A DNA stretch of 52,379 nt from Pristiophorus japonicus (taxonomy: Eukaryota), in the NCBI RefSeq assembly GCF_044704955.1, contig NC_091989.1, positions 105,028,001 through 105,080,379 on the forward strand, read 5' to 3'. This document shows, piece by piece, positions 13,911 to 24,787 of this stretch. The notes under the pieces are model-generated. The model saw only the letters and a list, made by a program, of their open reading frames with translations. It had not been told where the DNA came from and ran no database searches. A program made the position numbers and the translations under genes. Position 1 is the stretch's first letter. Each line of letters starts with the position of its first letter.

Positions 13911-13965
13911 ATGTCGGTGAGAGCAACAGTTCAGTACATGGCTCTTCTGGGCATCCTTTGGCCAG
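13911..13965 (+). CDS. IgSF receptor exon 1: leader peptide MSVRATVQYMALLGILWP(A)
   Basis: gcaccATG context, hydrophobic core, and a phase-1 donor cag|gtactt that fits the phase-1 V exon. Confidence 0.75.
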
Positions 13966-14167
13966 GTACTTCTAGTTATATGCTTCCGTTTCTGAACGGC
14001 AGAACCTATTTTAGAATATTCTACAACTGTTGTGAATCGTAAAGTTAGATACTGTGCTTTTCCAATTTGATTGCTGGTGTTTCTTAATTGTATTTTACGT
14101 CTCTTAATTATTTTTCTTTATCTGATGTGTGCAACTGTAATCGCCATTCTTGTTTATTTTCCGATAG

Positions 14168-14473
14168 CCGCTGAAGTAGATTCGAACAAAGTGGATCAAT
14201 TCCCTAGACACATGAAGGTTGCCAGGGGCACAAATGTTTCCATGTTCTGCACTTTTCCCATATTTCAAGATGCCCCCGATGTTTATTGGTGGAGACGCGG
14301 CGACCAGACGCTTCTGGAGCCAGACAGCAGAAAGCAATTTAATGTAAAGAAGGGCAGAGGGTTATTTGATGTCCTGAATGCGAGTGTCGCAGACTCTGGA
14401 ATGTATTACTGTACAGTAAAACATAATCAAACCACTGTTGGAGATAGAAGTGGCTCCCAGCTTACTGTGTTCG
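14168..14473 (+). CDS. IgSF receptor exon 2: V-set domain with germline J-like G strand (SIRP/NCR3/PRARP-like)
   Basis: GTNVSMFC...VYWWRR...DSGMYYC...SGSQLTVF. Acceptor ttttccgatag| and donor g|gtaagt, phase 1-1, 306 nt. Confidence 0.93.
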
Positions 14474-14539
14474 GTAAGTGCCATTGTGCCGGGGAGTGGG
14501 AGATTCTCAGCAGTGTGCGGTATATGTAAATCTCAATAG

Positions 14540-14699
14540 TGGGGGTCATTTGAACTTTTATCACTGGACGAAAACTTGGTGATAGCAAATTCGTTTTACA
14601 CTTCTCCCGATTTTCTTTTGCTTTAACCCCGGTGTACTCCGGCCCGCCGATTCGCTATCGCCCATTTTGCGCTGCTCCCAAGATCAATTTCACCCCTCA
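14540..14699. mobile_element. Palindromic MITE-like element
   Basis: Ends gggggtcattt.../...aatttcacccc with internal gatagc/gctatc symmetry; related to 22233-22400 and 23665-23815. Confidence 0.55.
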
Positions 14700-16611
14700 T
14701 TGTCCGCATGAAATTCCAAAGTGCTTTATTTCCAACGAGTTCTTTTGGAAGTGCAGTTACAGTTGTTATGGAGGCAAGGTACTGAAAGAGTATACTTGTT
14801 TAAATTTTGGCTTGAAATTAATAACTGGGATTAGGTGGCCAGATTTCTTATCATCAAAATAGCCGTGCCGAGGAGCGACATTGGGAACAGTTAGGTCAAG
14901 TCTTTCATATAACATTGGATGGTGGGACATTTGGAGCTTTCAAGATTGAGGTGGATGGATTTTGTAGGCATGGGTATCAAAGGACATAGAGTTAAGTCAA
15001 TAGATTTGAGGTACAGATCAGCCATAATCTAATTGAATGGCCTCCTCCTCTTCCTATGTCCGCAGTTTAGGCTGTGCACTTGCGTCCATTGAGAACTTAT
15101 TTGGAACTGCCAAACTAATTTCACAAATGAATCTTACAACCCATTGAGAGGGGCTGTGTTGTTCTTACTCAATACTGGATTGGAACCCACATCCTTGAGC
15201 TGATGGGGCAATGTAGGAACCCAATGACTGCTTGAAACTCGGTCTTATGCCAATTGAACTTTTTAAAACGCTCACGACCGGGCAGGATATCACCGAACAT
15301 TTCTCTTTGTACTTGATGGTTTCCATTTACACTCCCCCCAACCTGAGACTGCAGTTACGGCAGGAGATAACGAGAACACCGACCCCGCCACCTCCTTGGA
15401 AATTCTGCCGCATTACATATTAGATATAAACAGATCCGTGGGGAAGGAATGGAGGAATTCTGATCTTCGGTTGGGCAGTCAACACGGTGCTGCTGGGAAT
15501 AAAGGACAAAATAATTTTCCAAGTTAATGATGCCCTGATTTAATAAATTGCTATTGCTACAAAGTCGGACAAGTACAAATGTAAGGAAAAGATGTTAAGG
15601 AGATTGTTTATAATAAACTGACAAAACAATGCAAACCTAATGAGGGACTCCATTTCCAGCTAAAGAGTGTCTGTAGCTCCATCGGACAGAGGGTCACCTT
15701 AGTAACAGACGGTTGTAGGACTGATATAAGCAGAATCTTCTTCAGGCAAAACGTGTTCAACAGAGCGAATAGACTTCGGGCAGGGCAAAAACCCTGGAAT
15801 TATATAAGACATGCACTCTGAGTTAGAATTTCCTATTGTGTTTCCCCTATCTGTATGGATGTGATCTACACAGCGATACACAATTATCAATATAACTCTT
15901 TCATTGCGTGAAAAATATTCCAGCCCTCAGCTCGCGCTCTGGAGAAAGTACATTAAGGAAAGCTGTGTGATCTGAAATCTCCCCCACACAAACTGAAATG
16001 CTGAGTTTGCAACTGGAATGCGCGGGTTCTAATCTATAGATTAGCAGCATCCTGTCTGCCGTCTGTGTAGACAACGGAGATATTTCAATATATCATGTAC
16101 ATCTCAATATTCACCGATAATCTAAAATATGTTTCGTGATATATGAAATATTCAAAATGCGATCAATTTTGAAATAAACAGACAAAACGTTTAACACCGC
16201 CAAGATTATTAATGAATAAAAAGAGATGGTTCCACTGTTCGTGTAGACAGGGTTCCGCTGTCTCCGATATATTCGGACAGGAACCTCACTTGGGGTCACT
16301 GCTGTCAACCACAATCCACGCCAGGATCTGATACCTCCATTAGAAACAGTGACGCGGGGCTCCCTGTATGTTACCGATCCTGGGAGAGTCGTCCTCTTTG
16401 CCTACCGTTCCCAATACATGCCGTCATACTGCTGTGCGCCGTAAACAATTTATAAAGTAAATGCAACCAAAAAATTTATAAAACGACAGCGCGGATAACT
16501 ATTGTGACAGCAGGATTGTAACAAGCATAACCATGGTAGGTAAATGAGAATGTGTCCCTTTAAATTGGAAAAAAAATTCAATGTATAGTAATATAATTTT
16601 TTCTGTTAAAG

Positions 16612-16905
16612 TTCCCTCAACCCCATTGAAAATCGCTCCTGTTGAAGGGATTTCAGCGACTTCTCTGAAACTCGAGTGCAAAACGGCTGCCTTTTTCCCG
16701 GAGGATTTAGAAATCGCCTGGCGAAGAGATGGTGTCGAAATTCTGACCGGAATAGCAACTGTGAAAAACAGGAGCGCGGAGCTGTTTGAGGTTTCCAGCT
16801 GGTTGGAAGAAACACAGCCTGTCCAGAGCGGAGTTGTTTATACATGTCTGGTATCTCATGTCTCTCTTCTGATGCCCACCAGTGTGAGCTACACAATACA
16901 GCAAG
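16612..16905 (+). CDS. IgSF receptor exon 3: C1-set domain
   Basis: LKLECKTAAFFPEDLEIAW...VYTCLVSHVSL (C1 motifs CxxxxFxP-W and YxCxVxHxSL). Acceptor ttttctgttaaag| and donor g|gtaag, phase 1-1, 294 nt. Confidence 0.93.
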
Positions 16906-16980
16906 GTAAGATTGGAAACATTTACAGCGGGAGTTGGGAACTGCTCCAACCTGTATTTACTCATTAATCTGTAGCTGGGC

Positions 16981-23593: not shown

Positions 23594-23664
23594 TATCCAT
23601 ACAATCATAAACCATTTCCATACATAATCAACAGAGGCAGTGTCAACAATCTGTACAGAAACGT

Positions 23665-23815
23665 GGTGGTAATTTTAAACTTTGTGGGACTGTGTAAAGC
23701 GGTGATAGCGAATTTGTCATCTCTCTCACTGACTTCAATGGAAATAAGATCGGGAGATGTAAAACGGGCCGCGGATTCCCTGTCACCAGATTTACACTAT
23801 CTCACACCAACATTA
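23665..23815. mobile_element. Palindromic MITE (same family as 22233-22400, inverted core)
   Basis: Core tctctctcactgacttcaatggaaataagatcgggagatg is the reverse complement of the core at ~22297-22340. Confidence 0.7.
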
Positions 23816-23917
23816 TCTCAGTTTGTTTCTCGAGTCTAGCTGATAATGGTTGCTTTGAACTACAAATTGCAGAATAAGAAACTCACCTGATCAGATTGGC
23901 AAATATCTCTGTTGCAG

Positions 23918-24055
23918 ACGAAGCAAGGAACCGATGACAGATTGACCTACGCCGCTCTCGTAACCAGCACCACGAAAAACGCGAAAGGCAGACAGGAGGA
24001 GAGCACGGTGTATGCCCAGGTACAGCTCAGGTCATTCACTGAAACACAATACTGA
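23918..24055 (+). CDS. IgSF receptor terminal exon B (ITIM LTYAAL + ITSM TVYAQV)
   Basis: Acceptor tctctgttgcag|, phase 0: TKQGTDDRLTYAALVTSTTKNAKGRQEESTVYAQVQLRSFTETQY*. Completes a 313-aa ORF. AATAAA at 24535. Confidence 0.85.
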   Translation, partial: TKQGTDDRLTYAALVTSTTKNAKGRQEESTVYAQVQLRSFTETQY

Positions 24056-24534
24056 GCCGCAGGAAATAGAAAGGTCCCAGGTTTAATCTAGCAAGTGTGT
24101 TGTGTCGGCTTATCGCAGGCAGGTTTCATTATAATTGACCTCCGTGTCCCAGGGATCGGCTGAAAAGTACAAATGCGCGGCAGGTTCCATCTTGGAGCCT
24201 CCACCGTAGGATCAGCAGGTCACCCTGGCTGTCGGCCGACGCTTTAAAACGGTGCTTTGCGATATGAGTATTCCAAATATTTAACAGGCGGGTATGACAT
24301 TGCTTTGCCTGCTATTTTAATTGAAGTATTAACCTGCTCATGTAAATGATTTACAACATGAGACGAACTCATTTTATATGAGCATTAAACCGGAATATTA
24401 ACGAGATTTTTTCGGGCCCAAGAATGGACACTGAGGGGGAGGGCAGCTGCTCCTGGAATTGGAGCCCAACAGGAATCAGTGTTTGCCGAGCAGGGAGAAA
24501 CCGGAGACAATACAATCAATCAGTACAAAGTCTG

Positions 24535-24540
24535 AATAAA
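24535..24540 (+). terminator. Candidate poly(A) signal for the exon B isoform
   Basis: AATAAA lying between the exon B stop and the exon C acceptor. Confidence 0.5.
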
Positions 24541-24649
24541 CCGCTTCCAATCTGAAGTTAGGAATTGATGAGAGGAAATTTCCCCGCAGCCTTTTTTAAA
24601 CCGCAGTGTGCAATGGACTAACGGGTGCTCCTAAATGTCACTTTCACAG

Positions 24650-24787
24650 ACTAAACAAAGAGGCGGAGACAAGCTGACTTACACCGCCCTGCAGTTCGCT
24701 GATTCCAAGAAAACATCAACATCTAAACACCAAGGCCAGGGCGCGGTGTATGCAGAAGTGAACCTGAGAAACAAAGAGAGGAGCTGA
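24650..24787 (+). CDS. IgSF receptor terminal exon C (ITIM LTYTAL + ITIM-like AVYAEV)
   Basis: Acceptor gtcactttcacag|, phase 0: TKQRGGDKLTYTALQFADSKKTSTSKHQGQGAVYAEVNLRNKERS*. Same length as exon B (45 aa). AATAAA at 25251. Confidence 0.85.
   Translation, partial: TKQRGGDKLTYTALQFADSKKTSTSKHQGQGAVYAEVNLRNKERS

What the first reader, a model, noticed from the sequence alone, without database searches (positions are those of the whole stretch)
13911..24787. Intact non-rearranging VJ-C1-TM-ITIM receptor beside NUDT21
Seen: six phase-compatible exons give a 313-aa type-I protein with a single-exon V domain ending in a J-like SGSQLTV (no RSS), a C1 domain, a neutral TM and two tyrosine motifs. 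Established: C1 domains are confined to a few families (Ig, TCR, MHC, beta-2-microglobulin, tapasin, SIRP, some B7 members), and germline VJ-C1 genes are proposed relics of the antigen-receptor precursor. Mammalian SIRP-alpha is V-C1-C1 and NKp30 is V only. Human NUDT21 is flanked by AMFR and OGFOD1, not such a gene. Inference: a possibly uncharacterised chondrichthyan inhibitory receptor family with TCR/IgL-like ectodomain architecture.
Basis: partly seen in the sequence, partly recalled or inferred. Interest (0 to 1): 0.75.

Follow-up and report, generated by a model that had tools for sequence, protein, structure and literature searches.

The report
Damaged shark paired immune receptor gene
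This gene belongs to a large family of antibody-shaped, non-rearranging surface proteins of sharks, rays and chimaeras that likely work as paired immune brakes and accelerators, but this copy has a stop codon in one tail exon and would act as a brake only if that exon is skipped.

Summary
The six exons are real, have canonical splice sites and give the 313-aa leader-VJ-C1-TM-tail protein; NUDT21 lies tail-to-tail about 9 kb away. Close relatives in horn shark and catsharks splice A-B-C in series. Here A holds an in-frame TAG, so the relative-like transcript stops at 287 aa with no tail tyrosine. An inhibitory receptor (347 or 313 aa) needs exon A skipped; no RNA could test this. Two near-invariant residues are also changed. 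The gene sits in a multigene family found in 16 cartilaginous-fish species, with ITIM-tailed and TM-arginine members up to 95% alike outside the cell: a paired-receptor system. It likely signals like SIRP-alpha, but SIRP membership is not shown: one C1 domain, a compact V domain predicted to lack C'/C'', and an ectodomain no closer to SIRP than to antibody light chains. Nothing ties it specially to the antigen-receptor ancestor. Ten literature searches found no description, but three key papers were not held.

The parts
13911..13965 (+). Exon 1, leader (phase 1)
   Evidence: GT donor; 71-79% identity to horn-shark leaders
14168..14473 (+). Exon 2, end of leader plus single-exon compact V domain with J-like G strand; first Gly of GxG is Arg
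   Evidence: Pfam V-set; AlphaFold pLDDT 88.9, no C'/C'' strands; Cys spacing 54 and G112R
16612..16905 (+). Exon 3, C1-set domain; P123S at an otherwise invariant position
   Evidence: Pfam C1-set E 6.7e-9
21786..21890 (+). Exon 4, uncharged transmembrane segment
   Evidence: family HMM 22 bits
22604..22647 (+). Exon 5, first cytoplasmic exon, ends in phase 0
23480..23566 (+).
   Evidence: tblastn E 2e-8 to relatives' tails; acceptor 13/17 pyrimidines, donor 6/9 consensus
23918..24019 (+).
   Evidence: matches the middle tail module of catshark P0022 and P0146
24650..24787 (+). Tail exon C, last coding exon: ITIM LTYTAL and ITIM-like AVYAEV, tyrosines 23 residues apart
   Evidence: 65-67% identity to relatives' last exon
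25251..25256 (+). Candidate polyadenylation signal AATAAA (another at 24535, between B and C)
   Evidence: use not shown
34135..42899 (-). NUDT21, span of the three ORFs with Pfam hits (neighbour, tail-to-tail; first and last exons not mapped)
   Evidence: Pfam NUDIX_2 E 7e-23, 1e-7, 1.6e-12

Best explanation
The gene is an ITIM-type member of a cartilaginous-fish family of germline V-C1 receptors that likely works as a paired brake/accelerator system, and this copy would give an inhibitory receptor only if its stop-containing tail exon A is skipped. Shown: the exons, the family, ITIM-tailed and TM-arginine members with near-identical ectodomains, three duplicated tail cassettes, and the stop in A. 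Inferred from SIRP-alpha and similar receptors: the V domain binds a cell-surface ligand (most likely a self marker, identity unknown), Src-family kinases phosphorylate the tail tyrosines, and SHP-1/SHP-2 dock on the pair in exon C and damp a leukocyte's activation. Inferred: arginine-bearing sisters pair with an ITAM adaptor and activate.
For: Family: 48 of 48 profile hits are chondrichthyan, 16 species; species with chromosome-scale contigs show one contig length for all their rows. Pairing: of 127 stored family-like proteins, 54 have an ITIM tail and 8 a TM R..DH pattern; catshark P0006 (TM Arg) is 94.8% identical in V+C1 to ITIM-tailed P0022, and Arg members fall inside the window gene's own clade. 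Tail: Tyr spacing of 23 in exon C equals that of SIRP-alpha Tyr429/Tyr452 (PMC13503985 passage); ESM features of the closest relative P0021 rank SIRP-alpha clusters first (0.96, 205 of 256). Skipping is frame-neutral (A 87 nt, B 102 nt) and one RefSeq model, P0018, joins exon 5 to C. Exons 1-5, B and C are open.
Against: No transcript evidence for any junction. Of 16 clade proteins that end in exon C, 15 include an A-like module (12 by pattern, 3 more by eye), so A is normally used, and its splice sites here still look usable. P0018 shares its last exon with a different gene model, so it may be a merged model. G112R and P123S hit positions 96% and 100% conserved. No ligand, cell type or phosphatase binding is shown for any member.
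Confidence: 0.58

Rival explanations
1. This copy is dying or is a decoy: exon A is spliced in as in relatives, giving a 287-aa protein without tail tyrosines, or an mRNA removed by nonsense-mediated decay.
For: TAG at 23537 lies 129 nt upstream of the B/C junction, beyond the usual 50-55 nt rule (recalled). A is present in 15 of 16 clade tails. An 8-residue piece that relatives have before A has no match here. Two near-invariant residues are changed.
Against: All other exons are open with good splice sites. The count of changes at conserved columns (1 of 18 in V, 3 of 22 in C1, one an alignment gap) is within the family's range, and the end branch (0.2) is near the median (0.22). The stop could be an allele or an assembly error; not testable here.
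Confidence: 0.3
2. The family is the true shark co-ortholog of SIRP-alpha/beta, with one C1 domain fewer, and reads CD47. (This concerns descent and can hold together with the best explanation.)
For: ESM features rank SIRP-alpha first. SIRP-alpha and SIRP-gamma rank 3rd and 8th of 8,317 PDB matches for the family profile and 3rd and 6th of 2,367 for the C1 profile. Same Tyr spacing. Many RefSeq names say SIRP-alpha-like.
Against: Those ranks sum two C1 domains. Per stretch, SIRP-alpha V+C1 scores 68.8 bits against 70.4 and 67.5 for light chains, and single light chains reach 90 bits. SIRP is absent from the top 60 of 169 for the V profile. Activators have Arg, whereas SIRP-beta1 has Lys (recalled). 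Reedfish genes named SIRP-alpha-like lie on chr12 (9 of 10 rows), not beside nudt21 on chr9.
Confidence: 0.22
3. [quoted passage not shown]
For: Single-exon VJ, split leader and a true C1 domain; whole-ectodomain scores to light chains equal or exceed those to SIRP. Such genes are proposed relics (PMC10751288 passage).
Against: The V is compact and predicted to lack C'/C''; its ESM neighbours are I-set clusters. UrIg2-like V domains score 9-12 bits to the family V model and form a separate clade. GxG motifs occur in many non-rearranging families (CD79, NITR, SIRP, CD8, NKp30, PRARP; PMC11599192 passage). UrIg genes lie in the MHC and the Ig/TCR complex; the one neighbour here is NUDT21.
Confidence: 0.07
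4. It is a B7-H6 (NCR3LG1)-like ligand rather than a receptor.
For: V-C1 layout; B7-H6 heads the fold search (Z 15.3, rmsd 3.2, 188 aligned); some RefSeq names.
Against: That Z is tied with NCAM2, Rst and others. A skate multi-domain V-C1 protein that I read as B7-H6-like (P0120; my label) scores only 17-20 bits on V and groups apart. Paired ITIM and TM-Arg forms point to receptors.
Confidence: 0.05

Closest known systems
RefSeq chondrichthyan V-C1 models (e.g. Heterodontus XP_067906043.1, XP_067905821.1; Scyliorhinus XP_038662961.1; Callorhinchus XP_007902825.2)
   Same: Same family: 45-73% identity in V+C1 for the pairs computed, same leader, TM and tail modules.
   Different: Automatic names only. 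Relatives keep exon A open; this copy has a stop in it and lacks the 8 residues before it.
SIRP-alpha / SIRP-beta1 paired receptors
   Same: VJ-type V plus C1 ectodomain, uncharged TM with tandem ITIMs 23 residues apart, look-alike sisters with a basic TM residue.
   Different: One C1, not two; V predicted without C'/C''; Arg rather than Lys in activators (Lys recalled); no shared neighbour found; CD47 binding untested.
UrIg / UrIg2 (PMC12227049)
   Same: Shark, non-rearranging single-exon VJ, split leader, C1 domains.
   Different: UrIg has three and nurse-shark UrIg2 nine C1 domains, are disulfide-linked dimers, lie in the MHC or Ig/TCR complex; V domains are far apart.
PRARP (chicken) and tetrapod VJ-C1 genes
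   Same: Non-rearranging VJ-C1 layout (as cited in PMC10751288).
   Different: Not compared: no sequence or primary paper was available.
NKp30 (NCR3) and teleost NITRs
   Same: Germline VJ domain; NKp30 has a TM Arg and NITRs come in paired forms (recalled).
   Different: NKp30 has no C1; NITRs have an I-type second domain (recalled), whereas this one is C1-set.
VNAR domain
   Same: Compact V fold: Z 14.2, rmsd 2.2, 96 aligned.
   Different: Tied with NCAM2, basigin, CD79b and TCR V; 21% identity; VNAR rearranges. Shows a shared shape only.

Membership tests
Chondrichthyan V-C1 paired-receptor family (unnamed) | V and C1 group with family members | tested here: met
   24-row clade, SH-aLRT 95, nearest P0021 at 73%; family V clade 97 against held outgroups
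Chondrichthyan V-C1 paired-receptor family (unnamed) | Inhibitory type: uncharged TM and last exon with two Tyr motifs | tested here: met
Chondrichthyan V-C1 paired-receptor family (unnamed) | Open A-B-C tail as in the closest relatives | tested here: not met
   TAG at 23537; A-B-C model ends at 287 aa
SIRP (alpha/beta1/gamma type) | V-C1-C1 ectodomain | tested here: not met
   One V and one C1 exon; family HMM and tblastn find no second C1 in the window. SIRP-alpha layout from PMC13503985. Other SIRP genes differ in domain count (recalled).
SIRP (alpha/beta1/gamma type) | Tandem cytoplasmic ITIMs | tested here: met
   LTYTAL and AVYAEV, 23 apart; sequence motif only
SIRP (alpha/beta1/gamma type) | Ectodomain closer to SIRP than to other V-C1 proteins | tested here: inconclusive
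   ESM favours SIRP; HMM stretch scores tie with or favour light chains
SIRP (alpha/beta1/gamma type) | Groups with SIRPs in a phylogeny | not tested
   No SIRP sequence was returned as a stored protein, so none is in the trees
SIRP (alpha/beta1/gamma type) | Conserved synteny with SIRP loci | tested here: inconclusive
   One marker only; reedfish nudt21 has no Ig-type neighbour and SIRP-named genes lie elsewhere; those names are automatic
SIRP (alpha/beta1/gamma type) | Binds CD47 | not testable with these tools
   No shark CD47 sequence held; needs a binding assay
Rearranging antigen receptors (Ig, TCR) | Separate V and J segments with RSS | tested here: not met
   Single VJ exon, no RSS near it
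UrIg / UrIg2 | VJ followed by three or more C1 domains; V groups with UrIg | tested here: not met
   One C1; UrIg2-like V separate; the UrIg2-like label for P0107 and P0121 is mine
PRARP / tetrapod VJ-C1 genes | Sequence or synteny relationship | not tested
   No sequence; PMC6761025 and PMID 34981186 not held
B7-H6 (NCR3LG1) | V-C1 fold closest to B7-H6 | tested here: inconclusive
   Top row but tied within 1 Z with unrelated tandem Ig pairs

The most novel reading that the evidence does not exclude
The family is a lineage of its own, neither SIRP nor B7-H6: a germline VJ-C1 paired-receptor cluster beside NUDT21, with a VNAR-like compact binding domain, that serves as the missing-self sensor of sharks, rays and chimaeras, tunes its braking strength by duplicating and killing whole ITIM exons, and survives in turtles as multi-VJ paired receptors with the same TM-arginine pattern.
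Probability: 0.15. Interest if true: 0.75.

Novelty: new variant of a known kind. Interest (0 to 1): 0.42.

Why it matters
Which receptors let shark innate cells tell self from non-self is little known. A clustered family with brake and accelerator forms in all three cartilaginous-fish groups is a concrete candidate, and it can be tested with ectodomain fusions against CD47, MHC class I and B7-type proteins. It also bears on where SIRP came from. This particular copy is a weak entry point: it is one of many, is already matched by automatic gene models in other species, and carries a stop codon in a normally used exon. Its modest extra value is as a case of a receptor losing one signalling cassette.

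Tried and rejected
RNA evidence: no RNA holder was listed; that is no evidence either way, and no reads could be laid. No whole genome is held, so cluster size and position in this species are unknown. A, B and C as three alternative last exons: my first reading; dropped because relatives splice them in series. A 24-nt exon for the 8 missing residues: best peptide score 19 with no AG/GT flanks, and none of 11 AG-24-GT/GC candidates scored over 5. An activating TM exon or second family gene in the window: none found with 105 family queries and the family HMM. Foldseek against PDB gave only antibody and TCR chains in the rows shown, 18-24% identity, in a library rich in them; not informative. 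SIRP is not among the 50 rows of either VIA search; absence is not evidence. The careful tree did not finish; quick trees are quoted. Literature: ten searches listed no paper on this family; the elephant shark genome paper and its supplement have no SIRP or ITIM mention; three look-ups were not held. No complex prediction was sent, as no candidate ligand sequence was held.
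Full report
Observation. Exon 2 is a Pfam V-set (E 1.6e-9) and exon 3 a C1-set domain (E 6.7e-9). No RSS lies at the V exon: two 3-mismatch hits elsewhere for the 12-spacer pattern against 0.75 expected, none for the 23-spacer. NUDT21 is on the minus strand; 3 of the 5 ORFs I tested there hit NUDIX_2, the nearest at 34135, 9.3 kb past the receptor's stop.

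Between exon 5 and the last exon (C) lie two more copies of the same tail module: A at 23480-23566 and B at 23918-24019. B and C are alike at DNA level (score 54 against a shuffle maximum of 35); A against B only equals the shuffle maximum (41), but A matches relatives' tails at E 2e-8. Horn-shark P0020 and P0021 and catshark P0022 and P0146 carry A, B and C in series. Of 30 clade proteins examined, 16 end in exon C and 15 of these include an A-like module (12 by pattern, 3 by eye; isoforms are counted). In the window A has an in-frame TAG at 23537, Asp for the first motif Tyr (also seen in P0020), and the 8 residues that precede A in relatives have no match. The relative-like transcript therefore stops at 287 aa with no tail tyrosine, 129 nt upstream of the last junction. 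Skipping A keeps the frame and gives 347 aa (B+C) or 313 aa (C alone, or B read through to its own stop). One RefSeq model, P0018, joins exon 5 to C, but it shares that exon with another gene's model and may be a merge. Two more signs of wear: G112R removes the first Gly of the J-type GxG motif (96% conserved) and P123S changes a position invariant in the other C1 domains. Against decay, the number of such changes and the branch length are ordinary for the family. 'Intact' is thus unproven, and no RNA run was available to decide.

The family. The C1 exon found 15 relatives among 152 candidates, 14 named and all chondrichthyan; the V exon found 5 among 58, all horn shark, at 66-75%. A profile of 54 members found 48 proteins among 7,997 scored, all from cartilaginous fishes, 16 species of sharks, rays and chimaera (the profile was built from such proteins and the search is word-limited). 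For species with chromosome-scale contigs all rows share one contig length, which suggests one cluster per genome; two draft assemblies show two small scaffolds each. Automatic names vary: SIRP-alpha-like, NCR3LG1-like, tapasin-related-like, IgL-like, TCR-beta-like. An exhaustive HMMER search gave 208 proteins at E 1e-30 or better, 150 listed, including giant Ig repeats. Of 138 stored proteins under 620 aa, 127 score 70 bits or more to the family V or C1 model (81 of them helped build it); 54 have an ITIM tail and 8 a TM pattern with Arg and a closing acidic-His pair. The two types mix in the tree: the window gene lies in a 24-row clade (support 95) with Arg members of two species, and catshark P0006 (Arg) is 94.8% identical in V+C1 to ITIM-tailed P0022 (quick tree). 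This is the pattern of paired receptors.

Structure. The V domain is short: 54 residues between the cysteines, 54-60 across 81 rows, against about 65-75 in Ig and TCR V domains (recalled). The AlphaFold model of the window's V exon (pLDDT 88.9) has strands A, A', B, C, D, E, F and a split G, with no C'/C''; the model of relative P0021 agrees. Fold matches are tied among NCAM2 (Z 14.4), a skate VNAR (14.2), basigin, CD79b and TCR V; ESM neighbours of the V exon are I-set clusters. For the whole ectodomain B7-H6 leads at Z 15.3, tied with unrelated Ig pairs.

Mechanism. Shown: layout, family, pairing pattern, motifs, the stop. Inferred: ligand binding at the V domain, phosphorylation of tail tyrosines by Src-family kinases and docking of SHP-1/SHP-2, as described for SIRP-alpha (PMC13503985, passages). 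The two tyrosines of exon C are 23 residues apart, as are SIRP-alpha Tyr429 and Tyr452 in that passage. Arg-type sisters would recruit an ITAM adaptor, by analogy with NKp30 (recalled). Ligand and cell type are unknown. I put 0.58 on a working brake made by skipping A and 0.3 on a dying or decoy copy.

Membership. It works like SIRP-alpha on the inside, and ESM features of P0021 rank SIRP-alpha clusters first (0.96). Membership is not shown. There is one C1, not two. SIRP-alpha's V+C1 stretch scores 68.8 bits against 70.4 and 67.5 for light chains, single light chains reach 90, and SIRP is missing from the top 60 of 169 for the V profile though 3rd of 2,367 for the C1 profile, where two domains add up. 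In reedfish, nudt21 is flanked by ogfod1 and 5-HT3A-like genes, and 9 of 10 genes named SIRP-alpha-like lie on another chromosome (PMC10751288 supplement); that is one marker and automatic names. No SIRP, NKp30, PRARP, TCR or IgL sequence could be put in a tree. Against the outgroups held, the family V domains form one clade (97), apart from UrIg2-like, B7-H6-like and turtle domains (my labels), with deeper order unresolved. The antigen-receptor-relic reading rests on architecture alone, and that architecture is shared by several non-rearranging families (PMC11599192, passage).

Literature. Ten searches listed no paper on this family. I read passages and two supplement parts of PMC10751288, parts 1-3 of 8 and passages of PMC12227049, passages of PMC11599192, PMC13503985 and PMC3964593 with a supplement search. 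Ohta 2019, Dornburg and Yoder 2022 and a third look-up were not held and the PRARP paper was seen only as a reference; any of these may already list the family. Earlier notes of this scan describe what seems the same family in other genomes; they are unchecked leads, not support.

Verdict. A real gene of a real, apparently undescribed paired-receptor family of cartilaginous fishes; a new variant of a known kind (SIRP-type paired receptors). The family is of moderate interest; this copy is damaged and adds little beyond showing a tail cassette being lost. Interest 0.42.

Noticed in passing
P0143, P0144, P0103 (turtle proteins): Multi-VJ receptors, one with an ITIM-type tail and one with a TM Arg pattern like the shark activators. 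They are the best non-chondrichthyan V matches among 12 stored outgroup proteins (39-54 bits) but only 22-28% identical and unresolved in the tree. All lie on contigs of 42-45 Mb. Whether they sit near NUDT21 was not testable.
   Followed up: partly
PMC10751288 supplement, reedfish chr12 7.4-11.7 Mb: A cluster of genes named SIRP-alpha-like, tapasin-related-like and MHC II-like among killer-cell lectin-like genes, the same mix of names as the shark family; homology not tested.
   Followed up: no
P0016, P0022, P0017 and P0087, P0105, P0111, P0140, P0168: Family models that lack the TM exon (possibly soluble) or the C1 domain (V-TM-tail), and tails with one to four modules; the gene parts are modular.
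   Followed up: partly
window:24535-24540: AATAAA between exons B and C; could end a B-terminal form with an ITSM-like motif, but one such hexamer in 600 nt is weak.
   Followed up: partly
window:1-13900 and introns: Dense decayed LINE-type reverse-transcriptase fragments (e.g. 1650-3897, 17185-18150); no other family exon upstream of the gene. Element names not tested.
   Followed up: no
window:51900-52379: Low-complexity tandem repeat rich in C and A at the window's end.
   Followed up: no
P0063: This horn-shark RefSeq model has retroelement sequence at its N-terminus, which hits repeats in the window; likely a gene-model error.
   Followed up: no
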